DNA from: Chloroflexi bacterium RBG_16_68_14
GTDB taxonomy: Bacteria > Chloroflexota > Dehalococcoidia > DSTF01 > RBG-16-68-14
DNA: 38,051 nt
Assembly: GCA_001796995.1 (NCBI GenBank)
Contig: MGOB01000041.1
Coordinates: 17,588-55,638, forward strand
Direction: 5' to 3'
Shown: one piece after another, positions 3,314 to 29,181 of the stretch
Numbering within the stretch: the first letter of the stretch is position 1
Layout: every line of letters begins with the position of its first letter
The notes under the pieces: model-generated
What the model saw: the letters and a program-made list of their open reading frames with translations, nothing else
Database searches by the model: none
Told to the model about the DNA's origin: nothing
Position numbers and translations under genes: made by a program

Positions 3314-3382
3314 AGCACTTCTAGAGGCTCAGCGTACGCTACGCAGATAGCAGTTCCCTAGGCCCATAGAGCCCGTTTCGAA

Positions 3383-3396
3383 TGGCCAAATGGCCC
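3383..3396. promoter_or_regulatory. Palindromic box TGGCCAAATGGCCC (GGGCC-N4-GGCCC family), upstream of the stand-alone receiver gene
   Basis: Read directly from the sequence, in the 119-bp gap between the response-regulator stop (3433) and the receiver start (3313). One mismatch to the perfect palindrome. Confidence 0.45.
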
Positions 3397-3432
3397 TTCC
3401 TTTGTGGGCGCTTCGGCGTGGTAGTGGGGCCG

Positions 3433-4089
3433 TTACGGCGTCTCAGGTGAGGAGCGGCGGCGGGCGATGAAGGCGGCCGCCTCCGAGCGACGGCGGAGGT
3501 TGAGCTTCCCCAGAATGCTACTGACGTAGTTTTTCACTGTCTTGTCGCTCAGATAGACCTCCTGAGCGATCTCTTTGTTCGTCTTACCCTCCGCGATGAG
3601 GTCGAGGATCTTCCGCTCCTGCTCGGAGAGGAGGGAGAGCTCGTCGTCCTTGCTGACGCCGGCGCTCCGCACCTGTTCCAGCACCCGCTGGGTGACCGCC
3701 GGGTCCAGGAGGGACTCGCCCCGGGTGGCCCGCTCGATGGCCTCCACCAGAGTCTGGCCCTGGGTCTGCTTCAGCAGGTAGCCAGTGGCGCCGGCCATGA
3801 TGGAAGAGAAGACCGCCTCATCGTCCGCGTAGGAGGTGAGCATGAGCACCTTCGTCTCGGGCCGGTGGGCGCGGATCTCCCGGCAGGCCTCCACGCCGCT
3901 GCCGTCAGGCAGGCGCACGTCCATCACCACCACGTCAGGCTCGGTCTTGCGCGCCTCGGCGACGGCGCTGGCGACGGAGCCCGCCTCGCCCACCACCGCC
4001 ATCTCAGGTCGGCGGCGGAGCAGCGCACGCAGCCCCTGCCGCACCACCTCGTGGTCGTCCACGATGAGCACCCGGATCTGCTTGGCCAT
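3433..4089 (-). CDS. NarL/LuxR-family (DevR-like) two-component response regulator
   Basis: 218 aa. Receiver domain (IRVLIVDDHEVV, DVVVMDVRLPDGSG) plus a LuxR-type HTH (LSEQERKILDLIAEGKTNKEIAQEVYLSDKTVKNYVSSILGKLN). Its start overlaps the kinase stop (TAATG). Confidence 0.93.
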   Translation of the reverse strand: MAKQIRVLIVDDHEVVRQGLRALLRRRPEMAVVGEAGSVASAVAEARKTEPDVVVMDVRLPDGSGVEACREIRAHRPETKVLMLTSYADDEAVFSSIMAGATGYLLKQTQGQTLVEAIERATRGESLLDPAVTQRVLEQVRSAGVSKDDELSLLSEQERKILDLIAEGKTNKEIAQEVYLSDKTVKNYVSSILGKLNLRRRSEAAAFIARRRSSPETP

Positions 4090-5435
4090 TATCGTTTCCT
4101 TTCCATCGCGAGCGCCAGTTCGACGACAAGCTGCGTGCCCCTGCCGTTGACGGATTGCACGGAGAACCGGCCGCCCAGCGCCTCGACGCGCTCCCGCATG
4201 TTGCGCAGCCCTTGTCCGCCGGCCGAACGCTTCGGCTTGAACCCGACGCCGTCGTCGGTGATGGTCATCCGAAAGATGCCGTCCTTGCGCTGCAGCTTGG
4301 CCGTCACGCTGGAGGCCCGCGCGTGCTTCCGAACGTTGTTGAGCGACTCCTGGGCCACGTGGAAGAGCGCCGTGCTCTGGTCCTCTGAGAGCCCCTGGCA
4401 GGCGCCCGGCTCCTCGATGAGCTGCACGTCCAGCAGCGCGTTCACCTTCAGCTCTTGGAGCAGGCCGCCCACGGCCCCGGCCAGGTCCGTATCGGCCAGC
4501 ACGCGGGGCCGCAGGTTGAAGATGTAACTCCGGATATCGGCGATGGTCTGGTTCAGGTTCTGGATCGCCTTCTGGAGCTGGGGCTGTACCTCGGCTGGGT
4601 CTTGGGCCAGGTCCTCCAGGCAGTTCTCCAGGGTCAAGCCGGCGGCGTAGAGGGACTGGATCACGCCGTCGTGCAGGTCCATGCCGATGCGGTCGCGCTC
4701 CTCCAGCACCGCCAGGTCCTGCACCTGGTGGTAGAGGCGGGCGTTTTCGATGGCGATGGCGCCATGGGCGGCGAAGGTGCGCAGCGTCTCCTCGTCCTGC
4801 TCGGTGAAGGGCTGGCCCCCGCTCTTGTCCGTCAAGTATAGATCGCCGACGATCCGGCCTTCGTACACGATAGGCAGGCCGATGAAGCTGGTCATCAGCG
4901 GGTGGTGGGGAGGGAAGCCGGAGGAGCGAGGGTCGTCGGCGATGCGGTCGATGCGCAGCGTCTCCCCCTTCTGGATGACAGCGCCCAGCAGCCCCTTGCC
5001 CTCCGGCGGCCGGCCGATGCGCTCCCGCTCCTCTCGGCTGAGGCCCGAGGTCAGGAACTCCGCGATCTTCCCCTCCTCATTCACCATCGCCAGGGCGCCG
5101 TAGCGGGCGTCGGTCACGGCGCGGCTCAGGTCCACTACCTTCTGGAGGACGGAAGCGAGGTTCAGCTCAGAGGAGAGGGCGAGGCTCGCCTCGTTGATGG
5201 CGGCCAGGTGGCGGGCCCGCTGCACCATCTCCCGCTGGGCCTGTCCCAGGACGCGGAAGATCCAGCTCGAGAAGGCACCGGCGCCGAGAGCGGTGATCAC
5301 CGTGATCAGGACGACGACACCCGCGTCCGAGAGGAACCGGCCCAGCCCCAGCACCACCAGTGCGGCCACTGCGGCCACAAAGGTGACAGGGAGCCAGACG
5401 CCGAGTTGACGCCACCGGCGGATCAGAGCCTCCAT
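4089..5435 (-). CDS. Membrane-anchored GAF-domain sensor histidine kinase (HisKA_3 type, DevS/DosS-like)
   Basis: 448 aa. Two N-terminal hydrophobic segments. GAF-like block GFPPHHPLMTSFIGLPIVYEGRIVGDLYLTDKSGGQPFTEQDEETL...AIENARLY. H-box DRIGMDLHDGVIQSLY. ATPase boxes QESLNNVRKHA, DDGVGF and GQGLRNMRERV. Confidence 0.9.
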   Translation of the reverse strand: MEALIRRWRQLGVWLPVTFVAAVAALVVLGLGRFLSDAGVVVLITVITALGAGAFSSWIFRVLGQAQREMVQRARHLAAINEASLALSSELNLASVLQKVVDLSRAVTDARYGALAMVNEEGKIAEFLTSGLSREERERIGRPPEGKGLLGAVIQKGETLRIDRIADDPRSSGFPPHHPLMTSFIGLPIVYEGRIVGDLYLTDKSGGQPFTEQDEETLRTFAAHGAIAIENARLYHQVQDLAVLEERDRIGMDLHDGVIQSLYAAGLTLENCLEDLAQDPAEVQPQLQKAIQNLNQTIADIRSYIFNLRPRVLADTDLAGAVGGLLQELKVNALLDVQLIEEPGACQGLSEDQSTALFHVAQESLNNVRKHARASSVTAKLQRKDGIFRMTITDDGVGFKPKRSAGGQGLRNMRERVEALGGRFSVQSVNGRGTQLVVELALAMERKR

Positions 5436-5446
5436 GGCATGTCCAC

Positions 5447-5457
5447 ATTATAGATCA
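5447..5457 (-). promoter_or_regulatory. Promoter-like element; minus strand reads TGATCTATAAT (perfect TATAAT -10) just upstream of the kinase ATG
   Basis: Plus strand is ATTATAGATCA. Only 11 nt separate the TATAAT from the ATG at 5435, which implies a near-leaderless mRNA. The identical 11-mer recurs at 17753-17763. Confidence 0.5.
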
Positions 5458-5521
5458 TAAGGTACAGCTCGGTCGCCGCGCTTGTGCCGCCGGTATCCGC
5501 CAACCGCAGCGTGCGCAGCCG

Positions 5522-5558
5522 ACAAGAAAGGAAGCCCGTCCGGTAGCTCCGGACGGGC
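5522..5558 (-). terminator. Rho-independent terminator downstream of the Fe-S carrier gene
   Basis: 10-bp perfect stem GCCCGTCCGG/CCGGACGGGC (5534-5543 / 5549-5558) with loop TAGCT. On the minus strand it is followed by TTCCTTTCTT. Confidence 0.7.
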
Positions 5559-5582
5559 CCTTCGGGCGGGCAGGGTGGCCGG

Positions 5583-5948
5583 CTAGTAGCAGGGGCGAGG
5601 GGAGCCGCCGCCTTCGGCCGTGTCGAAGCTGGAGCCGCAGGCACAGCTCTTGACGGCGTTGGGGTTGAAGATGGTGAAGCCGCTCTTCATGATGTCTTCC
5701 ACGTAGTCGATCTCGGCGCCCTGGAGGAGGGGGGCGCTCTCGGGGTCGACGAGGAGGCGGACGCCGTCGTGCTCGACGACGAAGTCGTCCTCCTCGGTCT
5801 CCTGGGCGAGGGTCATGCCGTACTGGTAGCCGGAGCAGCCGCCGCCAGCGACGAAGACGCGGAGGGCGCCGGCCTCGGCTCCCTGCTCCTGGAGGAGAAG
5901 CTTCACTTTCTCAGCCGCCTTGTCGGTCAGGGAAACGATGTCGCTCAT
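5583..5948 (-). CDS. A-type iron-sulfur cluster carrier (IscA/ErpA/HesB family)
   Basis: 121 aa. LRVFVAGGGCSGYQYGM and C-terminal CACGSSF are the three conserved Cys of A-type carriers. A 13-residue tail, DTAEGGGSPRPCY, follows the usual C-terminus. Confidence 0.9.
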   Translation of the reverse strand: MSDIVSLTDKAAEKVKLLLQEQGAEAGALRVFVAGGGCSGYQYGMTLAQETEEDDFVVEHDGVRLLVDPESAPLLQGAEIDYVEDIMKSGFTIFNPNAVKSCACGSSFDTAEGGGSPRPCY

Positions 5949-6055
5949 GCTGGCTGCCTCTTTCTAGCTGTTTCGCGGCCCCGGTACCGATGCGCTTCGA
6001 TCCGAGGGACATCTTTCACCCTACCCTCATACCAGGCGCGATAGGGTCGCGGGAA

Positions 6056-6069
6056 GGGCCGTTCGGCCT
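6056..6069. promoter_or_regulatory. Palindromic box GGGCCGTTCGGCCT, about 110 bp upstream of the Fe-S carrier gene
   Basis: Read directly from the sequence. One mismatch to GGGCC-N4-GGCCC. Confidence 0.4.
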
Positions 6070-6166
6070 GACCGGTGCGGGGCGATCGACCCTTGGCACA
6101 GCAAGGCAGACTTCGTCGACAGAAGGCCTGCTGTCGGCGGGATGGTTCCGGGACAGGCGGCTCCCG

Positions 6167-6188
6167 AAAAAAACAGGCCATTTGGCCT
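6167..6188 (-). terminator. Weak terminator-like hairpin plus T7 tract on the minus strand (it is also a palindromic-box copy, AGGCCATTTGGCCT)
   Basis: Minus strand reads AGGCC-AAAT-GGCCT-G-TTTTTTT. The stem is only 5 bp, so termination is uncertain. Confidence 0.3.
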
Positions 6189-6460
6189 CTTGTCAGGAGC
6201 TGCCGCTGGGAGGTATGCTCTCTACCAAGAAGGCCGGATCGTCCAGAGAGACGGTCCGAGCGGAGGAGCCCATGAACATACGGGTCCTAGCAGGCGTTTG
6301 GCAGGTTGACAGATAAGGCCCTACCGGGAGACGGTAGGGCGCAAGGCAACGCCAGGGCTCGCACCCACAATGGGGAATAGCGGTCCAAGAATAGAAGGAC
6401 CCAACCACCCGGGGGCTACCCGATAGCGAGCGCGGCGTAAACGAACACAACCTAATGCGA

Positions 6461-6491
6461 CAAAGGCTCTCTCACTATGAGAGAGCCTTTG
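6461..6491. terminator. Strong hairpin between the non-coding gap and the 3' end of modC
   Basis: 13-bp perfect stem CAAAGGCTCTCTC/GAGAGAGCCTTTG with loop ACTAT. On the plus strand it is followed by CTTTCTCC; on the minus strand (modC sense) it is followed by TCGCATTAGG. It may act in both directions. Confidence 0.6.
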
Positions 6492-6531
6492 CTTTCTCCA
6501 TCGCCGAGGGCTCCCAGGTCTGATGTCAGCC

Positions 6532-7689
6532 CTACGGGTCCCCGCCTGGGATGACGTGGATCGCGTCCCGCCGAATGGAGACCGTGACCTCCTTGCGCCG
6601 GTCGAGCCCCAGACGGAAGTAGACGTAGCCGGGCAGCTCGATCTCCAGGTCGTAGTGGGCGGGCCCGTCGTCCGCCGAGGGCTGACAGTCCGTGACTGCC
6701 GGCCCGCCGCCCACCAGGCCAGCTCCCGAAGGGGCGAGGCGGAGGAAGAGGCGGTAGGTCTCCGCCTGGATGCGCTCCTCCACGATGCAGCCGTGCAGAG
6801 TATTCTGCCGCGTCTCCGAGGGCGGCCGGTCGAGCCGGAAGATCATGATCTGGGTGGGCCGGATGCAGACGTCCACGGGCGTCTCGGCGGTCAGGGGCCG
6901 TGGCGGCGCCTCCAGCACGTGGCCCCGCCAGGCGATGTGGAGCGCCTCTTCGTCGGCGGAGAGCACGGTGCCCCGCAGCACGTTGCGCGTCCGCACGAAC
7001 TCGGCCACCCGGCGGCTGATGGGCCGGTAGAAGACCTCCTCCCGCGGGCCCTCCTGGAGCACCCGCCCGCCGTCCATGACGGCCATGCGCTGGCCCAGCA
7101 GGAAGGCGTCCTCCAGGTCGTGCGTGACGACCACGGTGGTGACGCCGGCCCGGCGGTGGAGCGCCAGCAGCTCCTCGCGCAGGCCGCCCCGGATGCCGCT
7201 GTCTAACGAGGAGAAGGGCTCGTCCAGGAGGAGGACGTCCGGCCGGAAGGCGAGGGCGCGGGCCAGCGCCACCCGCTGCTGCTGGCCGCCGGAGAGCTCT
7301 CGCGGGCGGCGACTCTCCAGGCCCGCCAGCGCCATCAGCTCCACCATCTCGCGCACCCGGGCCGCTCGCTGCGCCGGCGGCAGGTCGCGCAGCCCGTAGG
7401 CGATGTTCTCCTCGACGGTGAGGTGGGGGAAGAGGGCGTAGTTCTGGGGGACGTAGCCCACCCGGCGCGCCTGGGGTGGCAGGTTCACGCCGGCGTCGCT
7501 GTCGAAGAGGGTACGGGCGTCGGCGACGATGCGCCCGGCATCGGGCCGGACGATGCCGGCGATGCACTGGAGGGTGAGGCTCTTGCCCGACCCCGAAGGG
7601 CCGAAGAGGACGGTCATCTCCTGGGCGGCGCGGAAGGCGGCGTCGAGCTGGAAGCCACCGAGCCGACGCTGGACGCGGACATCAAGCAC
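6532..7689 (-). CDS. modC: Molybdate ABC transporter ATP-binding protein with a C-terminal TOBE/Mop-like domain
   Basis: 385 aa. Walker A GPSGSGKS, signature LSGGQQQRVALARAL, Walker B LLLDEPFSSLD, and a ~130-aa C-terminal extension. Sits in an operon with modB and modA. Confidence 0.9.
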   Translation of the reverse strand: MLDVRVQRRLGGFQLDAAFRAAQEMTVLFGPSGSGKSLTLQCIAGIVRPDAGRIVADARTLFDSDAGVNLPPQARRVGYVPQNYALFPHLTVEENIAYGLRDLPPAQRAARVREMVELMALAGLESRRPRELSGGQQQRVALARALAFRPDVLLLDEPFSSLDSGIRGGLREELLALHRRAGVTTVVVTHDLEDAFLLGQRMAVMDGGRVLQEGPREEVFYRPISRRVAEFVRTRNVLRGTVLSADEEALHIAWRGHVLEAPPRPLTAETPVDVCIRPTQIMIFRLDRPPSETRQNTLHGCIVEERIQAETYRLFLRLAPSGAGLVGGGPAVTDCQPSADDGPAHYDLEIELPGYVYFRLGLDRRKEVTVSIRRDAIHVIPGGDP

Positions 7690-8512
7690 GGCTGCCTCCA
7701 GGGCTCCAGCCCAGCAGCAGCTTGGAGACCAGGAGCACGGCGAAGGAGAGCACCACCAGCACCGCTGCCAGCACCAGCGCCGCCGTGGTGTCCTCGGTCA
7801 GGGCGGTGTAGATGGCCAGGGGCATGGTCTGGGTGCGGCCGGGCGTGTTGCCCGCGAACATCAGGGTCGCGCCGAACTCTCCCAGGGCGCGGGCCCAGGC
7901 CATGACCGCGCCCCCGAGGAGGGCGGGCCGGGCCAGCGGGGCCGTCACCCGCAGGAAGGTCTCCAGCCGTGACCGGCCCAGCGTGGCTGACACCCGCTCC
8001 AGCTCCTGGTCGACCGCCTCGAAGCCGGCCTTGGCCGCCTTCACGTAGAACGGCGAGGCGACGAACACCTGGGCCAGTACCACCGCCGCCGTGGTGAAGG
8101 CGACCTGCAACCCTAGCGCGTCCAGCGCGTCTCCCAGGAGCCCCTCCCGTCCGAAAGCCATGAGCAGGGCGATGCCCGCCACCGCCGGCGGCAGCACCAT
8201 AGGCAGGTCTAGCAGGGTATCGATGACGTCGCGGCCCGGGAAGCGGCGCCGGGCCAGCAGCAGGGCCGTTGGCGTGCCGAGGGCCAGGATCACCCCCAGG
8301 CTGATAGCGGTGGTGATGAAGCTGAGGCGCAGCGCCTCGGTGACCACCGGGCGGTTCAGGTAGTCGCGCAGGTCATCCTGGGGCAGCACCCGGACGAAGA
8401 TGGCGACCAGGGGCAGCAGGAGGAAGAGGACCAGGGCCATCGCGGCAATACCGAGCGCCACGGCGTCAGCCGCCGGTCGCCGGATGGGCCCCCGAAGCGT
8501 GAGCGCTGGCAT
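7682..8512 (-). CDS. modB: Molybdate ABC transporter permease
   Basis: 276 aa, multi-pass membrane protein. Contains the EAA-type loop and ALGEFGATLMFAGNTPGRTQTMPLAIY, typical of the ModB/CysTW family. Overlaps modC by 8 nt. Confidence 0.88.
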   Translation of the reverse strand: MPALTLRGPIRRPAADAVALGIAAMALVLFLLLPLVAIFVRVLPQDDLRDYLNRPVVTEALRLSFITTAISLGVILALGTPTALLLARRRFPGRDVIDTLLDLPMVLPPAVAGIALLMAFGREGLLGDALDALGLQVAFTTAAVVLAQVFVASPFYVKAAKAGFEAVDQELERVSATLGRSRLETFLRVTAPLARPALLGGAVMAWARALGEFGATLMFAGNTPGRTQTMPLAIYTALTEDTTAALVLAAVLVVLSFAVLLVSKLLLGWSPGGSRA

Positions 8513-8516
8513 CAGC

Positions 8517-9293
8517 TCATTGTACCCCCAGGAAGCCGTACTTCACGAAGATGCGCTGCCCGCGCTCGGACAGCAGGAAGTCGATGAAGGCGCGGGCGCG
8601 CTCGAGGTTGCCCGTCCCGCTGAGCAGGGCGACGAGGTAGCGGATGTCCGGCTGGTAGGCATCGGGGATAGGGATGACGGTGGCGCCCTCGCGTCGCAGG
8701 CGGGGGGAGTCGGTCTCGTAGACGATGGCGGCGTCCGCCTCCCCCAGCTCCACCTTGCCCGCGACGGCCTCTGCGTTCTCCTCCTGAGACACCACGTTCG
8801 CCTCCACTCGTTGGGCGAAGTCGGCGCCGAAGGTCTCGCTCATCGCCGCCAGCGCCTGGCGCGTGTACGCGCCCAGCGGCACCCCCTGGTCCGCCCAGAC
8901 CAGGCGCAGCCCGGACGCCGCCAGCCCTTCCAAGGTCTGGATGTCCCCCGGGTTCCCTCCCGCCACAGCGACTACCAATCGGTTGCGGGCGAAGACTACC
9001 GGCTCGCCGACGAGGAGCTCCGCGTCCTGGGCGAGCTGCATCTGGCGCTCGTCCGCGGAGACGAAAACGCTCGCCTCCGCTCCCTGCTCAAGCTGGAACC
9101 GGAGGCGCTGAGAGCCGGCGAAGTTGAAGGAGAGGTCGACGTCGGGATGCTTCTCTTCGAAGGCGAGGGCGATCTCCTCCAGCGGCCCGCGGAGGGAGGC
9201 GGCGGCGAAGACGGTGAGGTCGCCGCCGCCGCCCCAGCCCGCCGCGACCGCTGCCAGCAGGACGGCGTTCAGACCGAGGACCGCGAGGCGCAT
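8517..9293 (-). CDS. modA: Molybdate-binding periplasmic/extracytoplasmic protein
   Basis: 258 aa. Signal-like N-terminus MRLAVLGLNAVLLAAVAA, then LTVFAAASLRGPLEEI...FNFAGSQRL...VFVSAD, the ModA fold signature. First gene of the mod operon. Confidence 0.88.
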   Translation of the reverse strand: MRLAVLGLNAVLLAAVAAGWGGGGDLTVFAAASLRGPLEEIALAFEEKHPDVDLSFNFAGSQRLRFQLEQGAEASVFVSADERQMQLAQDAELLVGEPVVFARNRLVVAVAGGNPGDIQTLEGLAASGLRLVWADQGVPLGAYTRQALAAMSETFGADFAQRVEANVVSQEENAEAVAGKVELGEADAAIVYETDSPRLRREGATVIPIPDAYQPDIRYLVALLSGTGNLERARAFIDFLLSERGQRIFVKYGFLGVQ

Positions 9294-9384
9294 CCGCTAA
9301 CCAGCCGGGGAGGCAGGACGGTGGGAACCACAGCCTGTCGGCGATTTGCCTCTGCCCCGCTTCCGGGTCCGGCGCGCTCCTTCC

Positions 9385-10662: not shown

Positions 10663-10859
10663 GTCAAACCTCCCGGCCGAGCCCGCTCAGGCAGGCTCTC
10701 CACCGACATTGTACACGGCTTCACAGGCGAAAGAGGAGCCGTTTGGCACAAAGCAGGGGGACATTTGGGCTGTCCTTGTGACGGGGGGCGGTTCGGCGTA
10801 TCCTTTGGGCGGAAGGGCGCCGCCGGGGAGCGCTCCGCCTTCGGTGGGCGGTGGAGCTT

Positions 10860-10873
10860 GGGCCGTTCGGCCC
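10860..10873. promoter_or_regulatory. Perfect palindromic box GGGCCGTTCGGCCC in the divergent acyl-CoA dehydrogenase promoter region
   Basis: Read directly from the sequence, within the 363-bp gap between the divergent starts at 10662 and 11026. Confidence 0.45.
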
Positions 10874-11025
10874 TGGACAAAGAGGCGCCTCGGCACTGGA
10901 GAGCGCCCGTCGCAGGGAAGTAGGCTGCACCCGTTCAGCCTCGGCCCCGCTGGCCGTCGTAGGCGGTCCGGCGGGCAGTTGTTGCGCTGGTATCCGTCGG
11001 GAAACTTACTGGAGGAGGACGTTCG

Positions 11026-12222: not shown

Positions 12223-12356
12223 AGGATCTCTAAGGGTGGTGGGCGTGGCCCGAGGAACGCCACAGGTTGCCCGCCGGCGCCTCGCTTCGCGTTGGCCTGG
12301 TGGCCGAGATGTGGGCCTCTACCTCGGCCCAGCGTGAGGGCGGCTGAGAAGGTGGG

Positions 12357-13604
12357 ATGACGAGCGCCCTGAGAAGCTATCTCGATACGCAGCGGCAGGA
12401 GATCCTCGGCCGCTGTACCGCCTGCGGCGACTGCTTCCAGGTCTGCCCTATCGTCTCTCTCACGCCCCTGAAGGGCGCCTCGCCCGAGGGGGTGGTGACG
12501 GGCGTGCTGGAGGCGCTGCGGGGCAAGCCCGCGCCCGGTGAGGCTGTCGCATGGGCCGAGGCCTGCACCCGCTGCGGCCTCTGCATCGAGCGCTGTCCGG
12601 AGGGGGTGAACCCGCGCAAGATGCTGGCCCTCACCGAGGGCCTGGTCCATGAGGCCGCGGGCGCGCAGGCGGGCAGCCGGTTCTTCCGCCTCATGTCGCG
12701 GAACATCCGGCTCCTGAGCGGGCTCCAGCTCAGCCACCAGAACCTCGCCGGCATCCAGGGTCCGCCCCAGGACCAGGCGGACGTGGTCTTCTACGTCGGC
12801 TGCAACCTCCTCTCCACGCCCCACATCATCCTCAACGTGATGGAGTTGCTCAGCGCCCTCGGGGTCGATTACCGGGTCGCCGGCGGGACCGGCTACTGCT
12901 GTGGCGTGATCCACTTCGTCGGCGGGGAGCTGGAGGCCACGGGAAAGGTCACGGGCCACCTATTCTCCAAGCTGGCCGCCTTCCGGCCCCGGACCGTCCT
13001 CACCTGGTGCCCCACCTGCGAGATGTTCCTGGGCGAGACCATGGCCGGATTGGGGCAGCACGAGTTCGAGCTCCAGCACGTCACCGATTTCCTGGTGGCC
13101 CACCTGGATGTCCTGAAGGAGCGAATGTCGAAACCCATACCCCGGCGCGTCGCCGTCCACGGCCACGGCGGCCTGCCCCACATCAGCGACAACGTGCGGC
13201 GGCTCCTCGGCGCCATCCCCGAGCTCGATCTGGTCGAGCTCCACGACGGCGGTGAGCTGGGGTATAGCTGCAACGTGGGCGGCCTGCTGCGGGTGCCCAG
13301 CCTTCAGGCGGAGGTGCAGGCCGCGGTCTGGCAGCAGGCCCGGGCCATCGGCGCCGACGAGCTGGTGGACCTCTACCACGGCTGCCACCGCCTCCTCTGG
13401 GACGAGGGGGGCCTGCGGGTCCGAAACTTCACCGACCTCCTGGTGGAGGCGATGGGCCTGCCCTCCCACGAGGACCGGTTCCAGCGCTACCGGGGGATGC
13501 CCGGCCCCCAGCAGGTGCTGGAGGCGGCCCGAGACCTGATGCGAGAGAACGCCATCGACCCGGCCCAGGTGGAGCGAGTGCTCCCGGCGCTGTTCCAGCG
13601 GTAG
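12357..13604 (+). CDS. HdrD/GlcF-like (Fe-S)-binding oxidoreductase: two 4Fe-4S ferredoxin motifs plus Cys-rich CCG domains
   Basis: 415 aa. CTACGDCFQVCP and CTRCGLCIERCP ferredoxin motifs. Followed by VFYVGC...GYCCG...WCPTCE and a second Cys-containing half (YSCN...YHGCH). Confidence 0.8.
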   Translation: MTSALRSYLDTQRQEILGRCTACGDCFQVCPIVSLTPLKGASPEGVVTGVLEALRGKPAPGEAVAWAEACTRCGLCIERCPEGVNPRKMLALTEGLVHEAAGAQAGSRFFRLMSRNIRLLSGLQLSHQNLAGIQGPPQDQADVVFYVGCNLLSTPHIILNVMELLSALGVDYRVAGGTGYCCGVIHFVGGELEATGKVTGHLFSKLAAFRPRTVLTWCPTCEMFLGETMAGLGQHEFELQHVTDFLVAHLDVLKERMSKPIPRRVAVHGHGGLPHISDNVRRLLGAIPELDLVELHDGGELGYSCNVGGLLRVPSLQAEVQAAVWQQARAIGADELVDLYHGCHRLLWDEGGLRVRNFTDLLVEAMGLPSHEDRFQRYRGMPGPQQVLEAARDLMRENAIDPAQVERVLPALFQR

Positions 13605-13696
13605 GAGGGCTCCCATGCCGCTAGCAGCTAGTGCCTATGCAACTTAATCCTCACCTACGCTGATGGCGAGCTGCCGGGCGGCTGTCTGAAGCTGTT

Positions 13697-13752
13697 CCCT
13701 CACCCCCGGCCCCTCTCCCTCGTCAACGAGGGAGAGGGGCCGGGGGTGAGGG
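13697..13752. repeat. 56-nt perfect palindrome (26-bp stem, 4-nt loop) between convergent genes; bidirectional terminator and/or REP-like element
   Basis: CCCTCACCCCCGGCCCCTCTCCCTCG-TCAA-CGAGGGAGAGGGGCCGGGGGTGAGGG. I verified the arms base by base as exact reverse complements. Confidence 0.85.
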
Positions 13753-13801
13753 AGTGTCAATACCGCAGCATACTCAGCGCGGAAAAAAAGTTGGAGGGGC
13801 A

Positions 13802-14665
13802 TTAGCTCTCCTCGCCCGCAGCCTCCTGCTGCACCAGATGGGCGCGGCCGTCCTCTTCCTCCACCGTGATCCAGCGGCCCCGGATGGTGCGGCCGCTGGG
13901 GTCCACCTCGGCGCGCAGGGCGGCTAGCTCCTCCTCGGAGGGGAGGTCGAAGGTCTCTACCGATGGCGCCATGAGCGGCTTAAACTCCATCTGAGCCAGC
14001 ACGTCGTCGACGGTGGCCCAGGGGGCGACGGCAAGCAGGCGCATGCGGCGGCTCTCCTCGTCGAAGTCAAAGACGGCCATCTCCGTCACCACCCGCCAGG
14101 GGCCCGTGTCGGCTGGCAGGCCCGCTCGCTGGCGAGCATCGGGGCTGCCGTCCAGGAAGCCGGGCGAGGACATGAAGTCCAGCTTGTTGACGAACTTGCG
14201 CCCCTGCTGGCGGGTCATCAGGATGGTGCGCCAGCAGAGGGAGGCGATCTCGTTGGCGCCGCCCGGCCCGCCAAAGCGGCGCGCCGGCCGCTCGTACGCT
14301 GCCCCGACGAAGGTGGAGTTGAAGTTGCCGTACTGGTCCACCTGGACGGCGGCCAGCACGCCGTAGTCGATGTAGCCCAGCCCGGCGTGGAAGTCCACCG
14401 TGTTCATGTCGGTCCAGGCGACGGCCCGGTAGCCGGCGGCGCTGGACGCGATGAGGAAGGCCGGCGCCGGCATCTGGACGGCCGGCGCGATGGTGCCGTC
14501 CTCGACGACATAGGTGAGGTTAGGCGTGCGCAGGCGCTTCGACAGAAGCACGGCGATGAGGGGCGGCCCGCCGATGGCGACGAAGTACAGCCTCTCCTCC
14601 TCCATCATCCGGGCGGTGGTGCAGATGATCTGCTCCATGTCCGTGAAGGTGCGTGTCGTGCTCAT
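13802..14665 (-). CDS. CoA-transferase subunit B (glutaconate/3-oxoacid CoA-transferase family)
   Basis: The track ORF (13802..15259) has an Arg/Pro/Gly-rich N-terminal extension, unlikely to be real, that overlaps the subunit A gene. I place the start at MSTTRTFTDMEQIICTTARMMEEERLYFVAIGGPP, an ATG at 14665 that overlaps the subunit A stop as ATGA. Confidence 0.85.
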   Translation of the reverse strand: MSTTRTFTDMEQIICTTARMMEEERLYFVAIGGPPLIAVLLSKRLRTPNLTYVVEDGTIAPAVQMPAPAFLIASSAAGYRAVAWTDMNTVDFHAGLGYIDYGVLAAVQVDQYGNFNSTFVGAAYERPARRFGGPGGANEIASLCWRTILMTRQQGRKFVNKLDFMSSPGFLDGSPDARQRAGLPADTGPWRVVTEMAVFDFDEESRRMRLLAVAPWATVDDVLAQMEFKPLMAPSVETFDLPSEEELAALRAEVDPSGRTIRGRWITVEEEDGRAHLVQQEAAGEES

Positions 14666-15633
14666 TCGTAGTAGCCCTCCCGGATCGTCTCCTCGGCGCG
14701 GAGGCGCTCCATCTTCTCCTGGCCGACGCGCTGTTCCAGCATCTCCTCGTGGGAGGAGACGCTGAACGCCCACTTGTCCAGATATTCGGCCATCTTGCCC
14801 TGGACCTGGGCCGCCCCGAACTCCATTAGGTGCTCCACGTCGGCCCGGTAGAGGCCGGGCACGGAGCCGGGGTAGCCACCGAAGGGAGCGTGGACGACGG
14901 CATCGACCATGTAGTAGGGGACCCGGGTCTGCTGGGGGTGGCGGCGGATCTCCTCGTTGGGGATGATCTCCTCGGTGGAGAGGACCACCTTCCGGGAGGC
15001 CATGGCCGTCTCCACCGGGGCGACGCCGGCGCCGAAGATGCGGGCGTTGCCGAACTCGTCGCACTGGTTGACGTGGATGAGGGCCACGTCCGGGTTGAGG
15101 GCGGGTACCAGGCAGACGGCCTGGCCGGTGTAGGGGTCCTCGATGAGCTTGGTGCCGGAGGTGCGGAAGACGTCGGTGCCGCCCAGGTAGCGCAGGGGCA
15201 GGAAGGGGACGCCCAGGGCGCCCGCCAACTGGCGGTAAGCCAGCGCGCCGTTGCTCCACTCGAAGAGCTGGACGCGGCCCTCCGCCATCGCTTCGTGGAT
15301 CACCCGGCCCACCTCCATCCAGCCTACGTCGATGCGGCTCACGCAGCCCGCGGCCACCAAAAGGGTGGCGTCGTGGGCGGTGAACTTGGCGGCGATCCAG
15401 AGGTCGCGCTTGCGCTGGCGGATGAGCTCGCGCATGAGGGAGGCGGGCCCGCGGTTCCAGATGTTGCAGTCGTAGCTCAGGTAATCGCCGTCCTGGACGA
15501 AGCGCTCGATGGCCTCGTGCTCGGACATCACTTTGGAGACGAGCCGCCGCTCCTTGTGGTCGCGGACGTGGCGGCGGAAGCCGTCGGGGTCGGGTGGCTT
15601 GAAGACGCCGGTGCCGGCGGCCAGGACGCTCAT
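14662..15633 (-). CDS. CoA-transferase subunit A (glutaconate CoA-transferase-like)
   Basis: 323 aa. KVMSEHEAIERFVQDGDYLSYD..., IHVNQCDEFGNARIFG. 4-nt overlaps with both neighbouring genes. Confidence 0.85.
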   Translation of the reverse strand: MSVLAAGTGVFKPPDPDGFRRHVRDHKERRLVSKVMSEHEAIERFVQDGDYLSYDCNIWNRGPASLMRELIRQRKRDLWIAAKFTAHDATLLVAAGCVSRIDVGWMEVGRVIHEAMAEGRVQLFEWSNGALAYRQLAGALGVPFLPLRYLGGTDVFRTSGTKLIEDPYTGQAVCLVPALNPDVALIHVNQCDEFGNARIFGAGVAPVETAMASRKVVLSTEEIIPNEEIRRHPQQTRVPYYMVDAVVHAPFGGYPGSVPGLYRADVEHLMEFGAAQVQGKMAEYLDKWAFSVSSHEEMLEQRVGQEKMERLRAEETIREGYYE

Positions 15634-16457
15634 CCTTCGCCCTCCCTAGGTGCCAGTCCGGGGATGGCCAGTTGCCATTCCAGGTTGAGGGCGTGGCTCA
15701 GGTACTTCAGCTCGGCGTCGCGCCAAGGCAGCGGGGCCGGCTCCTGGAGCATCCCTTCCTGCTTCATCTCCTCCACTACCTGCGAGTCCTCCTCGAAGGG
15801 CTTCCCGTGCTGCATCTCAAAGAAGATCTCCTCGAAGGGGTGCTTGCTGGTCTGACCGCCCGCCTCCCACGATTCGGCCGGGTAGCCGACGGACATGAGG
15901 CAGACGGGGATGGCCGTCTCCGGCAGGTTGAGAAGCTTGCCGATCTGCTCCAGGCGGGGGCTGCTCATCAGGCAGGTGCCCAGCCCCTCGTCCCAGGCCA
16001 CGAAGGTCGCCTGGGCCACCGCCTGCCCAACGTCCATGAAGGCGAGGGGTGCCACCGCCATCTGCTCCCAGGCGGCACCGAAGGCGGGCCGCAGGTTCCG
16101 CTCAATGATCGCTTTGGTCGCCTCCACGTCCTCGCCGATGCGCCGCTGCTCCGCCAGGTTCTTCAGGTCATCGATCCATTTGTTGACCTCGTAGGACATC
16201 TTGTCGTGGTACCAGAGGATGAAGCAGGGGGCGGTCTGCATCTGCTGGTAGCCCAGGGGCGGAGTGATCGCCTTGATCAGCTCCGGGGAGGCCTGGTCCT
16301 TCCAGATGACGATGGCGCGCGCCACGGTGACGTTGCCCACGCAGGAGGCGAGCCGCGCCGCCTGCAACATCTTCTGCACCTTCCACCGCTCCACCGGCCG
16401 GAAGGGCAGATAGTAGCGGATGCTGCGTCGATTGCCGATGACCCGCTTGACTTCCAT
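15630..16457 (-). CDS. Nitroreductase-family flavoprotein
   Basis: 275 aa. N-terminal RRSIRYYLPFRPVERWKVQKMLQAARLASCVGNV is the nitroreductase-fold signature. C-terminal extension of ~70 aa. Confidence 0.75.
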   Translation of the reverse strand: MEVKRVIGNRRSIRYYLPFRPVERWKVQKMLQAARLASCVGNVTVARAIVIWKDQASPELIKAITPPLGYQQMQTAPCFILWYHDKMSYEVNKWIDDLKNLAEQRRIGEDVEATKAIIERNLRPAFGAAWEQMAVAPLAFMDVGQAVAQATFVAWDEGLGTCLMSSPRLEQIGKLLNLPETAIPVCLMSVGYPAESWEAGGQTSKHPFEEIFFEMQHGKPFEEDSQVVEEMKQEGMLQEPAPLPWRDAELKYLSHALNLEWQLAIPGLAPREGEG

Positions 16458-16484
16458 TCAGTGACCTCTCCTTTTGCTCCTCAA

Positions 16485-17708
16485 TTAGATGGCAAGAATG
16501 TGGACGCAGGTGGCGGCCGCCTCGCCGCGCACCATGCCGCCGCCGTTCTCCGTCATGCCGACCTTCGCCCCTTGCACCTGCCGGTCGCCGGCCTCGCCGC
16601 GCAGCTGGGTCCAGATCTCGTAGATCTGCGCCACCCCCGTCGCGCCGATGGGGTGGCCCTTGGCCAGCAGCCCGCCGCTGGTGTTCACCGGCAGCCGGCC
16701 GCCCAGCCCGGTGACCCCTTCATCGATGAGCCGGCCGCCCTCGCCCTCGCCGCAGAGGCCCAGCTCCTCGTAGAGCATCAGCTCGGCCGGGGCGGTCGCG
16801 TCGTGCAACTCGAGGACGTTTACGTCCCGGGGGGTCAGGCCCGCCATCTCGAAGGCGCGCTGGGCGGCGCGGGCGCTCTCGCCCATGCCGTCCTCCGCCT
16901 GGGTGTCCGACCCGGTGACGAGGGAGGAGCCGCGCACCCACACCGGCTTGGTGGTGAACTGGCGCGCCTTCTCCTCGCTGACCAGGATGGCCGCCGCGGC
17001 GCCGTCGCCGATGGGGGAGCACATGAGACGGGTGAGCGGCTCCGAGATCAGGGGCGAGGCCAGGATCTCCTCCAGCGAGTAGACCTCTCGATACTGGGCG
17101 TGGGGGTTGAGGCTGCCGTGGTAGTGGTTCTTCACCGCGATGCGGGCGAACTGCTCCTTGGTGGTGCCGTAGCGCGCCATGTGGGCCCGCGCGCCCGCGG
17201 CGTAGAGGTCCATGAACAGGCTGCGGGACTTGCCGGCCCCGCTCTCCGCGCCCGCCTTCTCCTCCGAGGGCGGCTTCAGCCGCTGGGTGAGCTCCTTGAG
17301 CTGCTCCACGTCGACGGCGGAGCCGAAGGCCGCCATCGTCCGGCCCTTGTCCTCCGAGTACATCTTCTCCACCCCCAGGGCGAGGGCGACGTCGTACATG
17401 CCGGAGGCAACGTAGAGCCAGGCGACCTGGAAGGCGGTAGACGAGCTGGCGCAGGCGTTCTCGGTGTTAATGATGGGGATCTTGTCGATCCCCATCTCCC
17501 GCAGCATCACTTGGCCGCGAACGCACTCCTGGCCGGTGAGGAGCCCGGCGGCCGCGTTGCCAACGACGGCCACCTGGAGCGCCTTTTTGTCCGTGCCGGC
17601 CGACTGCAGCGCCTCGGTGACGGCCTCGTTGGCCAGCCACTTCAGCCCGCGGTCCTGGTACTTGGCGAAGCGGGTCATGCCCGCGCCTACGATAGCGACG
17701 CTTCTCAT
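16485..17708 (-). CDS. Thiolase (SCP-x / lipid-transfer-type acetyl-CoA C-acyltransferase family)
   Basis: 407 aa. VAIVGAGMTRFAK, active-site context NTENACASSSTAF, and C-terminal GHPIGATG ... NGGG. Confidence 0.9.
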   Translation of the reverse strand: MRSVAIVGAGMTRFAKYQDRGLKWLANEAVTEALQSAGTDKKALQVAVVGNAAAGLLTGQECVRGQVMLREMGIDKIPIINTENACASSSTAFQVAWLYVASGMYDVALALGVEKMYSEDKGRTMAAFGSAVDVEQLKELTQRLKPPSEEKAGAESGAGKSRSLFMDLYAAGARAHMARYGTTKEQFARIAVKNHYHGSLNPHAQYREVYSLEEILASPLISEPLTRLMCSPIGDGAAAAILVSEEKARQFTTKPVWVRGSSLVTGSDTQAEDGMGESARAAQRAFEMAGLTPRDVNVLELHDATAPAELMLYEELGLCGEGEGGRLIDEGVTGLGGRLPVNTSGGLLAKGHPIGATGVAQIYEIWTQLRGEAGDRQVQGAKVGMTENGGGMVRGEAAATCVHILAI

Positions 17709-17752
17709 GTTCGTGTCCTTTCCACGCTAGGTCTCCGGGTGTTGGCCGCACC

Positions 17753-17790
17753 ATTATAGATCACGTATAGATCACGCGCGCAATAGATGA
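17753..17790 (-). promoter_or_regulatory. Promoter-like region of the thiolase operon: TATAAT -10 within TGATCTATAAT, plus phased TATAGATCA repeats
   Basis: The plus strand has TATAGATCA at 17755-17763 and 17766-17774 (11-bp period), and a degenerate AATAGATGA at 17782-17790. The 11-mer ATTATAGATCA (17753-17763) is identical to 5447-5457. Confidence 0.5.
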
Positions 17791-17873
17791 CGAGCGCGTG
17801 CTCGCTCAGACCTGGCTTGGACACTACGGTCGACGCTCAGACCCTTCCCAGTGCCGAACCGCTCGTTTCCTGC

Positions 17874-17971
17874 GGGCCATACGGCCCAACTGCTAGCCCA
17901 GGCGGGAGGGCCGTGCGGCTCTTCCTGCCTCGATGGGCCATTTGGCCCCCCATCCATGGGCCATTCGGCCC
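17874..17971. promoter_or_regulatory. Three perfect-arm palindromic boxes in the thiolase / Mo-operon divergent region
   Basis: GGGCCATACGGCCC (17874-17887), GGGCCATTTGGCCC (17935-17948), GGGCCATTCGGCCC (17958-17971). The last two are both preceded by ATG and are centred 23 bp apart. Confidence 0.55.
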
Positions 17972-17984
17972 TATCATCGCCAAC

Positions 17985-17998: not shown

Positions 17999-18023
17999 AT
18001 TAAGCGCACACAGGAGGTGGGGT

Positions 18024-21746: not shown

Positions 21747-21759
21747 CAGGGAGTGGGAC

Positions 21760-24995: not shown

Positions 24996-25010
24996 GAAAG
25001 GAGCACAGTC

Positions 25011-25661: not shown

Positions 25662-25679
25662 TAGAAAGCGAGGCTCCCC

Positions 25680-27406: not shown

Positions 27407-27409
27407 GCA

Positions 27410-29178: not shown

Positions 29179-29181
29179 GCC

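What the first reader, a model, noticed from the sequence alone, without database searches (positions are those of the whole stretch)
3383..17971. A DosR-box-like 14-bp palindrome (GGGCC-N4-GGCCC) marks four promoter regions of the window
Seen in the sequence, there are seven copies, all intergenic. TGGCCAAATGGCCC is at 3383-3396, upstream of the stand-alone receiver gene and next to the kinase/regulator pair. GGGCCGTTCGGCCT (6056-6069) and AGGCCATTTGGCCT (6175-6188) are upstream of the Fe-S carrier gene. GGGCCGTTCGGCCC (10860-10873) lies between the divergent acyl-CoA dehydrogenases. GGGCCATACGGCCC, GGGCCATTTGGCCC and GGGCCATTCGGCCC (17874, 17935, 17958) lie between the thiolase operon and the Mo-enzyme operon. 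The centre is always (A/G)T(T/A)(T/C) or its complement. From base composition alone I roughly estimate about one perfect-arm hit in the whole window. Four perfect and three near-perfect copies confined to the few percent of non-coding DNA is therefore striking. I scanned the intergenic regions carefully but the coding DNA only casually. Established knowledge: the mycobacterial DosR/DevR box is, as I recall it, TTSGGGACTWWAGTCCCSAA, that is GGGAC-N4-GTCCC, the same 5-4-5 geometry. Inference: these boxes are operators for the adjacent DevR-like NarL-family regulator. That would define a redox/hypoxia-responsive regulon linking the two-component system, Fe-S supply, beta-oxidation genes and the Mo operon.
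Basis: partly seen in the sequence, partly recalled or inferred. Interest (0 to 1): 0.7.

Follow-up and report, generated by a model that had tools for sequence, protein, structure and literature searches.

The report
DevR/OsdR-type operator boxes in Chloroflexota
The repeated GGGCC-N4-GGCCC palindrome is real and is very probably the binding site of the neighbouring DevR/DosR-like oxygen/redox response regulator, so this is a known kind of regulatory switch found in a new bacterial phylum rather than a new mechanism.

Summary
With the centre included (GGGMC-RWWY-GKCCC, up to 2 mismatches) the window has 11 matches, all in the 7.8% of DNA that is non-coding (P about 6e-13).

The window comes from Chloroflexi bacterium RBG_16_68_14. 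The adjacent regulator (3433-4089) is closest to M. tuberculosis DevR among solved structures (E 2e-60) and keeps its three base-reading residues. The kinase GAF domain matches the heme GAF-A of DevS/DosT, with the heme histidine and distal tyrosine kept.

The motif keeps every position critical for DevR binding. It equals the OsdR consensus of Streptomyces coelicolor, AGGGCCGATCGGCCCT, which was deduced upstream of osdR orthologues and whose predicted sites OsdR bound in gel shifts.

In about 90 orthologous loci the box:
- is the most over-represented 5-4-5 palindrome;
- sits beside the two-component genes;
- has a weaker partner 22-23 bp away;
- lies 22-25 or 42-47 nt upstream of -10-like hexamers.

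Boxes D, F and G are conserved in orthologous operons. Binding, the signal and the sign of regulation are untested. Box C heads a conserved, unannotated structured RNA gene.

The parts
3433..4089 (-). DevR/DosR/OsdR-type NarL-family response regulator, the proposed binder of the boxes
   Evidence: Pfam Response_reg + GerE. Best solved relative is Mtb DevR 3c3w, E 2e-60, with K179/K182/N183 conserved. It is the only protein in the window with a detected DNA-binding domain.
4089..5435 (-). DevS/DosT-like sensor kinase with one GAF domain, HisKA_3 and HATPase
   Evidence: Pfam. The GAF domain matches the heme GAF-A of DosT 2vzw and DevS 2w3d/2y79 (E 5e-35 to 2e-33). The residues aligned with His149 and Tyr171 are kept.
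2921..3313 (-). Stand-alone receiver gene, putative target of boxes A and A'
   Evidence: Pfam Response_reg only. A box directly after the regulator gene and upstream of a receiver or Usp gene recurs in orthologous loci.
3383..3396 (.). Box A, TGGCCAAATGGCCC
   Evidence: It starts 37 nt after the regulator stop. The six closest orthologous loci all carry a box 35-110 nt after the stop.
3361..3374 (.). Weak partner box A', GGCCCATAGAGCCC (3 mismatches), 22 bp from A on the receiver side
   Evidence: A TANNNT hexamer (TACGCT) lies 24 nt after it on the minus strand, read.
6056..6069 (.). Box B, GGGCCGTTCGGCCT, 108 bp upstream of the Fe-S carrier gene
   Evidence: It is not conserved upstream of Fe-S carrier orthologues.
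6079..6092 (.). Partner box B', GGGGCGATCGACCC (2 mismatches), 23 bp from B
6175..6188 (.). Box C, AGGCCATTTGGCCT, directly upstream of the -35 of the RNA-gene promoter
   Evidence: Conserved as AGGCCACTTGGCAC in L150 but not in L153. On the minus strand it is followed by T7 and scores as a weak terminator.
6190..6219 (+). Promoter TTGTCA-18-TATGCT, the only sigma-70 consensus match in 3200-18100
   Evidence: Both hexamers are conserved in L153 and L150.
6226..6497 (+). Conserved structured RNA gene with a 14-codon ORF (6273-6317) and its own terminator (6462-6495); putative regulon member
   Evidence: Fold z-score -7.7. No Rfam match. Homologues lie next to the kinase gene in L153/L154 and L150/L156/L157. 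The consensus fold has 78 pairs, 7 with compensatory change. Covariance-model core 6261-6442.
5583..5948 (-). Fe-S cluster carrier (HesB/IscA-like) gene, a possible target of boxes B and B'
   Evidence: Pfam Fe-S_biosyn. It has its own terminator at 5560-5532. This is the weakest target assignment.
10736..10749 (.). Weak box GAGCCGTTTGGCAC, promoter-proximal for the minus-strand acyl-CoA dehydrogenase
   Evidence: TACAAT (10713-10708, minus strand) lies 22 nt after it, read. The equivalent pair in L001 is at 4139/4161.
10758..10771 (.). Weak box GGGACATTTGGGCT, 22 bp from 10736
10860..10873 (.). Box D, GGGCCGTTCGGCCC, between the divergent acyl-CoA dehydrogenase genes (9385-10662 minus, 11026-12222 plus)
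   Evidence: Conserved between the orthologous divergent genes in L001 (3988) and upstream of the orthologue in L145 (526). TAGGCT (10921-10926) lies 47 nt after it.
17851..17864 (.). Weak box E', GTGCCGAACCGCTC (3 mismatches), 23 bp from E on the thiolase side
   Evidence: TAGTGT (17826-17821, minus strand) lies 24 nt after it, read.
17874..17887 (.). Box E, GGGCCATACGGCCC
   Evidence: Its 5' half is conserved in L145.
17908..17921 (.). Degenerate box GGGCCGTGCGGCTC
17935..17948 (.). Box F, GGGCCATTTGGCCC, distal box of the plus-strand promoter
   Evidence: Aligned with a box in L145, L146 and L148, while the surrounding intergenic DNA averages 51% column identity.
17958..17971 (.). Box G, GGGCCATTCGGCCC, proximal box, centre about -43 relative to the -10 TAAATT (17996-18001)
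   Evidence: A perfect box is present at the same place in L146 and L148.
13802..17708 (-). Thiolase, nitroreductase and CoA-transferase operon, putative target of boxes E and E'
   Evidence: Pfam. The same gene set is in L145.
18024..29178 (+). Operon for FAD oxidoreductases, SCP2-like proteins, an ethylbenzene-dehydrogenase-like Mo enzyme (alpha, gamma, beta, chaperone) and MobB/MobA; putative target of boxes F and G
   Evidence: Pfam. The same operon lies downstream of conserved boxes in L145, L146 and L148.

Best explanation
The boxes are 'Dev boxes', operators of the DevR/DosR/OsdR-type response regulator encoded at 3433-4089.

Proposed mechanism:
1. The adjacent heme-GAF kinase (4089-5435) senses O2, NO, CO or redox state and phosphorylates the regulator.
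2. A phosphorylated dimer reads the two GGG-C half-sites of a strong box through its recognition helix (K179/K182/N183 equivalents).
3. It helps a second dimer onto a weaker box two helical turns (22-23 bp) away.
4. The promoter-proximal box, centred near -43 and abutting the -35 region, then recruits RNA polymerase.

In this window the sites would co-activate:
- the stand-alone receiver gene;
- a small structured RNA;
- two acyl-CoA dehydrogenase genes;
- the thiolase/nitroreductase/CoA-transferase operon;
- the FAD-oxidoreductase/Mo-hydroxylase operon;
- possibly the Fe-S carrier gene.

Shown here: the motif, its non-coding restriction, its conservation, its association with the regulator gene, the tandem spacing and the fixed distance to -10-like hexamers. 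Inferred: binding itself, activation rather than repression, and the signal.
For: Motif statistics:
- 11 of 11 matches lie in 7.8% non-coding DNA.
- 4 perfect copies against 0.55 expected.

Proteins:
- The regulator's best solved relative is Mtb DevR, and the DNA-reading residues are identical (roles of K179/K182/N183 from PMC13486717).
- The kinase GAF domain matches DevS/DosT heme GAF-A with the His149/Tyr171 equivalents kept.

Motif identity:
- It keeps G3, G4, G5, C7 and W9, the positions critical for DevR binding (PMC3177182).
- It equals the OsdR consensus AGGGCCGATCGGCCCT. OsdR bound predicted sites in gel shifts, and mutating conserved positions lowered or abolished binding (PMC5069765).

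In 80 species-level loci fetched with the regulator:
- GGGCC is the most over-represented 5-4-5 palindrome arm among arms seen more than a few times (54 observed, 8.4 expected).
- Hybrid GGGCC..GTCCC sites are common.
- About 26 of 31 strict sites are non-coding or lie in the first 78 nt of a mechanically extended ORF, which I take to be upstream of the true start.
- 27 of 31 lie downstream of the regulator start.

Association with the regulator gene:
- A box lies within 250 bp after the regulator stop in 24 of 83 loci, against 9.4% expected. This holds for all 6 closest orthologues.

Architecture:
- A partner box 22 bp away scores z about 5, also without the window. Mtb boxes sit at -42.5 and -63.5.
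- TANNNT hexamers cluster 22-25 and 42-47 nt after the box.

Conservation and targets:
- Boxes F, G and D are conserved in orthologous operons.
- Targets in relatives include pyruvate:ferredoxin oxidoreductase (three loci scanned, L034, L042 and L043; a fourth, L055, was not scanned), multicopper-oxidase/nitrite-reductase-like proteins (four loci), Usp, stand-alone receivers, H+-pyrophosphatase and a P-type ATPase. These fit a low-oxygen programme.
Against: - No binding, transcription-start or expression data exist for this organism.
- The rest of the genome could not be scanned. The only control is 207 kb of unrelated high-GC loci: 0.5 strict sites per 100 kb against 2.6.
- The kinase has one detected GAF domain, whereas DevS and DosT have two. 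Heme binding is untested.
- The kinase-regulator operon in this window has no box of its own upstream, unlike L006.
- Box B is not conserved with the Fe-S gene.
- Box C is absent from one of three RNA-gene homologues and could also act as a weak minus-strand terminator.
- Several predicted -10 hexamers are poor.
- A paralogous regulator with the same recognition helix could share the sites.
Confidence: 0.85

Rival explanations
1. The boxes are operators of a different transcription factor, encoded elsewhere in the genome. Candidates are a paralogous NarL/LuxR-type regulator or a PAS-LuxR protein such as the one near the kinase in L006. The adjacent DevR-like regulator would then bind something else.
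For: - No binding data exist.
- In S. coelicolor the kinase OsdK has a second cognate regulator (PMC5069765), so paralogue cross-talk is known in this family.
- L006 encodes a PAS+GerE protein about 5 kb from the kinase.
- The window's own kinase operon lacks a box upstream.
Against: - The motif matches what DevR-type recognition helices are known to read, and that helix is conserved here.
- Boxes track the regulator gene across different genomic contexts.
- No other protein with a detected DNA-binding domain was found in the 38 kb window.
Confidence: 0.09
2. The palindromes act as RNA or DNA hairpins, either short intrinsic terminators or REP-like repeats, and not as protein operators.
For: - Each box can form a 5-bp G+C stem with a 4-nt loop (-8 to -12 kcal/mol with flanks).
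- Box C on the minus strand is followed by T7 and passes the terminator scan.
- Box A lies just after the regulator stop codon.
Against: - Boxes D, E, F, G, 10736 and 10758 lie between divergent gene starts, where no transcript ends.
- Across loci, strict sites split as 9 divergent, 23 co-directional and 1 convergent.
- The arm sequence itself (GGGCC or GGGAC) and the A/T-rich centre are conserved. There is no covarying stem of free sequence.
- Partners sit at 22-23 bp and -10-like hexamers at fixed distances. Hairpins would not require either.
- Apart from box C, none of the seven boxes is reported by the terminator scan or is followed by a T run.
Confidence: 0.04
3. The copies are chance occurrences of a G+C-rich palindrome in a 68% G+C genome.
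For: With arms alone and one mismatch allowed, the count is not above expectation (17 against 12.2).
Against: - 0 of 100 shuffles reach 4 perfect copies.
- 11 of 11 full-motif matches lie in 7.8% non-coding DNA, P 6e-13.
- The boxes are conserved in orthologous loci.
Confidence: 0.01

Closest known systems
OsdR (SCO0204) binding site of Streptomyces coelicolor, consensus AGGGCCGATCGGCCCT (Urem et al. 2016, PMC5069765)
   Same: - The same GGGCC-N4-GGCCC palindrome with the same A/T flanks.
- It is bound by a DevR orthologue that pairs with a DosT-like kinase.
- Sites cluster around the regulator's own locus.
- Targets include Usp and nitrate/redox genes.
   Different: - The phylum differs: Actinomycetota against Chloroflexota.
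- The centre here is more A/T-rich (ATTT, ATTC, GTTC).
- The targets here are beta-oxidation-type genes and a Mo-hydroxylase operon.
- Binding is proven for OsdR and only inferred here.
Dev box of Mycobacterium tuberculosis DevR/DosR, TTSGGGACTWWAGTCCCSAA (Chauhan et al. 2011, PMC3177182; DosR transcription activation complex, PMC13486717)
   Same: - 5-4-5 geometry.
- Critical G3, G4, G5, C7 and central A/T.
- Recognition residues K179/K182/N183.
- At least two tandem boxes in helical phase, with the proximal box near -42.5.
- A heme-GAF sensor kinase.
   Different: - Half-site position 6 is C here and A in Mtb (GGGCC against GGGAC). Mixed sites occur in relatives.
- Spacing is 22-23 bp here against 21 bp.
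- The kinase has one GAF domain, not two.
- The regulon content differs.
NarL heptamer sites of E. coli (TACYYMT, often as 7-2-7 inverted pairs); from my own knowledge, not checked here
   Same: Same regulator superfamily (NarL/FixJ, GerE-type helix-turn-helix). NarL 1a04 is a solved relative at E 3e-33.
   Different: The sequence and geometry are different, and the recognition-helix specificity differs. The window's boxes do not resemble NarL heptamers.
DrrS, the DosR-regulated small RNA of M. tuberculosis (Moores et al. 2017, PMC5360333)
   Same: A stable non-coding RNA under a DosR-dependent promoter is the nearest precedent for the box-C-headed RNA gene at 6226-6497.
   Different: No sequence or Rfam relationship was found. 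The RNA here is about 270 nt, carries a conserved 14-codon ORF, and is known from only three distinct sequences.

Membership tests
DevR/DosR/OsdR operator (Dev box) | Inverted repeat of 5-4-5 geometry with G3 G4 G5 and C7 in each half-site and A/T at the centre (18-bp numbering of PMC3177182) | tested here: met
   All four perfect boxes and the near-perfect ones keep GGG-C and a W-W centre. The motif is identical in form to the OsdR consensus.
DevR/DosR/OsdR operator (Dev box) | A cognate NarL-family regulator with the DevR recognition helix (K179, K182, N183) is encoded in the genome | tested here: met
   Protein 3433-4089 against 3c3w: E 2e-60, with the recognition-helix segment KTVKNYVS (DevR 179-186) identical.
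DevR/DosR/OsdR operator (Dev box) | At least two boxes in tandem and in helical phase at regulated promoters (strong primary site, weak secondary site) | tested here: met
   Window pairs are 22-23 bp apart. The offset-22 signal has z about 5 across loci, also without the window. Examples are L158 8532/8554 and L003 17070/17093.
DevR/DosR/OsdR operator (Dev box) | Promoter-proximal box centred near -42.5, next to or overlapping the -35 element | tested here: inconclusive
   TANNNT hexamers cluster 22-25 and 42-47 nt after boxes. Box C abuts a consensus -35. No transcription start sites are known, so the positions are predictions.
DevR/DosR/OsdR operator (Dev box) | Sites cluster at the regulator's own locus and are conserved in orthologous loci | tested here: met
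   A box follows the regulator stop in 24 of 83 loci against 9.4% expected, and in 6 of 6 closest orthologues. Boxes D, F and G are conserved.
DevR/DosR/OsdR operator (Dev box) | Specific binding by the phosphorylated regulator | not testable with these tools
   This needs EMSA, footprinting or DAP-seq.
DevS/DosT-DevR two-component system | Sensor kinase with a heme-binding GAF-A domain (proximal His149, distal Tyr171), a second GAF domain, HisKA_3 and HATPase | tested here: inconclusive
   The GAF domain matches DevS/DosT GAF-A at E about 1e-34 with the His and Tyr equivalents kept, and HisKA_3 and HATPase are present. Only one GAF domain is detected (448 aa), and heme binding is untested.
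DevS/DosT-DevR two-component system | Induction of the regulon by hypoxia, NO or CO | not testable with these tools
   Support is indirect only. Targets in relatives are typical of anaerobic or low-oxygen metabolism, and Usp genes adjoin the regulator.
REP element or intrinsic terminator | Location at gene 3' ends; stem conserved by pairing, not by sequence; a T run after the stem for terminators | tested here: not met
   Contexts are 9 divergent against 1 convergent. Six window boxes lie between divergent gene starts. The arm sequence is conserved as sequence. Only box C has a T run.

The most novel reading that the evidence does not exclude
The roughly 270-nt structured RNA at 6226-6497 is a new DevR-controlled riboregulator or dual-function RNA. 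It has its own promoter headed by box C, its own terminator and a conserved 14-codon ORF. It always lies next to the devS-like kinase gene in this Chloroflexota clade, which would make it a functional counterpart of mycobacterial DrrS. It would form part of a DevR-type low-oxygen programme that switches on an anaerobic Mo-hydroxylase/beta-oxidation pathway.
Probability: 0.3. Interest if true: 0.55.

Novelty: new member of a known kind. Interest (0 to 1): 0.35.

Why it matters
The finding extends the DevS/DevR (DosS/DosR, OsdK/OsdR) dormancy and hypoxia switch, with its operator sequence and promoter architecture nearly unchanged, from Actinomycetota to uncultivated subsurface Chloroflexota.

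It gives a ready position-weight matrix for predicting low-oxygen regulons in these metagenome-assembled genomes.

It predicts that an ethylbenzene-dehydrogenase-like molybdenum hydroxylase and its beta-oxidation partners are under oxygen/redox control. That is a testable statement about anaerobic catabolism of hydrocarbon or steroid-like compounds in aquifers.

For a specialist the result is expected rather than surprising. My two literature searches that combined DosR with Chloroflexi found no paper on such a regulon.

Tried and rejected
- **Sigma-54 promoters.** I briefly read TTGGCAC at 6093 and 10743 as -24 elements. The GG-to-GC spacing does not fit. The 10743 copy is the 3' arm of the weak box at 10736. 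The 6093 copy directly abuts the 3' end of weak box B' (6079-6092).
- **Rfam.** A search of the window at gathering scores, and of 5950-6540 at E up to 1, found only a tRNA. The RNA at 6226-6497 belongs to no curated family.
- **Exact-protein look-up of the window's regulator.** This found no contig, so the rest of the source genome could not be scanned.
- **Fe-S carrier loci.** I spent the single metagenome scan on the Fe-S carrier protein, hoping to find the RNA and box B in syntenic loci. The 58 loci show neither. Box B is therefore not tied to that gene. The loci served as a rough negative control.
- **Covariance model of the RNA core.** A search over 1.38 Mb of held loci found only the three known members.
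- **First position-weight matrix.** It was too stringent for neighbour scoring and was replaced by match counts.
- **Box upstream of the kinase gene.** None is present in this window. There is a TATAAT-like hexamer there instead.

Full report
**1. The observation**

All seven sequences are at the stated coordinates.

- The perfect pattern GGGCC-N4-GGCCC occurs 4 times against 0.55 expected. None of 100 dinucleotide-preserving shuffles reaches 4.
- Arms alone with one mismatch are not enriched (17 against 12.2). The near-perfect copies carry weight only through their A/T-rich centre and their location.
- I scored the full motif as GGGMC-RWWY-GKCCC against a gene map built from codon-position G+C and Pfam. 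The window has 4, 6 and 11 matches at 0, up to 1 and up to 2 mismatches.
- Every match lies in the 2961 non-coding bases, 7.8% of the window (P 3.7e-5, 2.2e-7, 6.3e-13).
- A mechanical ORF (17787-19610) runs over boxes E-G. Nearly all of the 120 best homologues listed are 527-532 aa, as expected for a start at 18024. These boxes are therefore non-coding.
- New weaker boxes are at 6079, 10736, 10758 and 17908 (2 mismatches) and at 3361 and 17851 (3 mismatches).
- These pair the boxes at 22-23 bp: 3361/3383, 6056/6079, 10736/10758, 17851/17874 and 17935/17958.

**2. Source and neighbours**

- The regulator protein is 100% identical to one from Chloroflexi bacterium RBG_16_68_14.
- Gene 3433-4089 has a receiver domain and a GerE helix-turn-helix.
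- Among solved structures its best match is M. tuberculosis DevR (3c3w, E 2e-60). The recognition-helix segment KTVKNYVS (DevR residues 179-186) is identical. It includes K179, K182 and N183, the residues that read GGGACT in the DosR transcription activation complex (PMC13486717).
- Gene 4089-5435 has GAF, HisKA_3 and HATPase domains.
- Its GAF domain matches the heme-binding GAF-A of DosT and DevS (E 5e-35 to 2e-33). The residues aligned with the proximal His149 and the distal Tyr171 are kept (roles from PMC4082495).
- Only one GAF domain is detected, whereas DevS and DosT have two.
- No other protein with a detected DNA-binding domain is encoded in the window.

**3. Comparison with known operators**

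- In the 18-bp numbering of Chauhan et al. (PMC3177182), G3, G4, G5 and C7 of each half-site and the A/T at position 9 are critical for DevR binding. Position 8 is not.
- The window's motif keeps all critical positions. It differs from GGGACT at position 6 (C for A) and position 8.
- The S. coelicolor orthologue OsdR was assigned the consensus AGGGCCGATCGGCCCT from the regions upstream of osdR orthologues. OsdR bound predicted sites in gel shifts and lost binding when conserved positions were mutated (PMC5069765). That is the same motif as here, flanking A and T included.
An even closer known match exists in OsdR.

**4. Related loci**

I fetched 6 loci through close orthologues. I fetched 80 species-representative loci with the regulator as query: Chloroflexota mostly, a few Actinomycetota and Bacillota, 57-81% identity. 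Nearly all carry the kinase directly upstream of the regulator.

In those 1.21 Mb:
- GGGCC-N4-GGCCC occurs 54 times against 8.4 expected from 5-mer frequencies. It is the most over-represented 5-4-5 palindrome among arms seen more than a few times.
- Hybrid GGGCC..GTCCC sites number 34, bridging the OsdR-type and DosR-type half-sites.
- Of 31 strict sites, 18 are called non-coding. Eight more lie within the first 78 nt of a mechanically extended ORF, which I take to be upstream of the true start.
- 27 of the 31 lie downstream of the regulator start.

Association with the regulator gene:
- A box (up to 2 mismatches) lies within 250 bp after the regulator stop in 24 of 83 loci, against 9.4% expected.
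- This holds in all 6 of the closest orthologues, although the next gene differs: receiver, Usp, or luciferase-like.
- In 207 kb of unrelated high-GC loci the strict motif is five times rarer (0.5 against 2.6 per 100 kb). This is a weak control.

**5. Promoter architecture**

- Around strict sites, similarity to the motif peaks at an offset of 22 bp (z 5.1, or 4.8 without the window) and 23 bp. Mtb Dev boxes sit at -42.5 and -63.5, and that tandem in-phase arrangement is required for activation.
- TANNNT hexamers are almost absent near boxes except 22-25 nt (7 cases) and 42-47 nt (10 cases) after the box end. That is 17 of the 29 seen in 80 offsets. It places box centres near -43 and -65.

In the window:
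- Box G is followed at 24 nt by TAAATT (17996-18001). A ribosome-binding site and the ATG at 18024 come next.
- The weak box at 10736 is followed at 22 nt, on the minus strand, by TACAAT.
- Box E' is followed at 24 nt by TAGTGT.
- Box D is followed at 47 nt by TAGGCT.
- Box C abuts the only consensus sigma-70 promoter in 3200-18100, TTGTCA-18-TATGCT.

**6. Conservation of individual boxes**

- In the orthologous FAD-oxidoreductase/Mo-enzyme operons of L145, L146 and L148 (85-88% protein identity), boxes F and G align in register. The rest of the intergenic DNA averages 51% column identity.
- Box D is conserved between the divergent acyl-CoA dehydrogenase genes of L001 and upstream of the orthologue in L145.
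- Box B is not found upstream of Fe-S carrier orthologues.

**7. Regulon content**

Genes after strict boxes in relatives include:
- pyruvate:ferredoxin oxidoreductase in three loci scanned with Pfam (L034, L042, L043); a fourth long ORF in the same position in L055 was not scanned;
- two-domain multicopper-oxidase/nitrite-reductase-like proteins (four loci);
- stand-alone receivers, H+-pyrophosphatase, a heavy-metal P-type ATPase, a luciferase-like oxidoreductase and an Rrf2 regulator.

Usp genes sit next to the regulator. This fits a low-oxygen or redox programme by inference, and it overlaps in kind with the DosR and OsdR regulons (Usp, nitroreductase).

**8. Rival explanations**

- **Hairpins, terminators or REP elements.** Each box can form a 5-bp stem. 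However, six window boxes lie between divergent gene starts, and contexts across loci are 9 divergent, 23 co-directional and 1 convergent. The arm is conserved as sequence, not as pairing. Only box C has a T run, so it may double as a weak minus-strand terminator.
- **A different or paralogous regulator.** This cannot be excluded without binding data, but nothing points to one.
- **Chance.** Excluded.

**9. Mechanism and verdict**

The best-supported model is the Mtb and Streptomyces one:
1. A heme-GAF kinase phosphorylates the regulator.
2. Dimers occupy a strong box and cooperatively fill a weak box two turns away.
3. The proximal box near -43 recruits RNA polymerase.

Shown here are the motif, its statistics, its conservation, its association with the regulator, and its geometry. 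Inferred are binding, activation and the signal.

This is a new member of a known kind, and interest is modest.

**10. Limits**

- The rest of the source genome was not available.
- No transcription start sites are known.
- Gene calls in fetched loci are crude.

Noticed in passing
window 6226-6497 (+), promoter 6190-6219, terminator 6462-6495; homologues L153 1700-1954 (-) and L150 2770-3017 (-): An unannotated, conserved, strongly structured RNA gene. The fold z-score is -7.7 and there is no Rfam family. Promoter hexamers are conserved, the terminator shows compensatory changes, and the consensus fold has 78 pairs, 7 of them compensatory. It carries a Shine-Dalgarno sequence and a 14-codon ORF (MNIRVLAGVWQVDR, 6273-6317). 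The ORF's differences between homologues are mostly synonymous. It always lies next to the devS-like kinase gene. Only three distinct sequences are known.
   Followed up: partly
window 17985-17998: A second 5-4-5 palindrome, TTAGCAATCGCTAA, overlaps the -10 (TAAATT) of the FAD-oxidoreductase/Mo-enzyme operon promoter. The block ACTTAGCAATCGCTAAATTA is nearly invariant in L145, L146 and L148 while the flanks diverge. It is probably the operator of another regulator, perhaps a substrate-specific one, acting together with the Dev boxes.
   Followed up: partly
window 17755-17795: Three direct repeats (TATAGATCACG, TATAGATCACG, CAATAGATGACG) lie in the predicted 5' leader of the thiolase operon. 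They are possibly another operator.
   Followed up: no
window 18024-37622: Three paralogous molybdopterin-oxidoreductase alpha subunits (22176-24995, 29182-32013, 33175-36177) occur together with an ethylbenzene-dehydrogenase gamma subunit, Fe-S beta subunits, a NarJ-like chaperone, MobB/FmdE and MobA. FAD oxidoreductases and SCP2-like proteins precede them. The set resembles anaerobic alkyl-chain or steroid hydroxylase clusters.
   Followed up: no
window 1585-2874: A phage-type integrase gene (1585-2724) lies directly next to a tRNA gene (2801-2874). This is a typical integration hotspot, so DNA to the left may be a mobile element.
   Followed up: no
window 6532-9293 (-): A ModABC-like ABC transporter (SBP_bac_11, permease, ATPase) lies between the two-component genes and the acyl-CoA dehydrogenases. 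This is the same synteny as in L001 and fits the molybdenum demand of the neighbouring enzymes.
   Followed up: no
L148 13098-13111; L158 8532-8567: A perfect box lies inside the Mo-enzyme operon, between the alpha and gamma subunit genes of L148. A perfect and near-perfect pair 22 bp apart lies upstream of an amidohydrolase gene in L158. Both show further regulon members in relatives.
   Followed up: no
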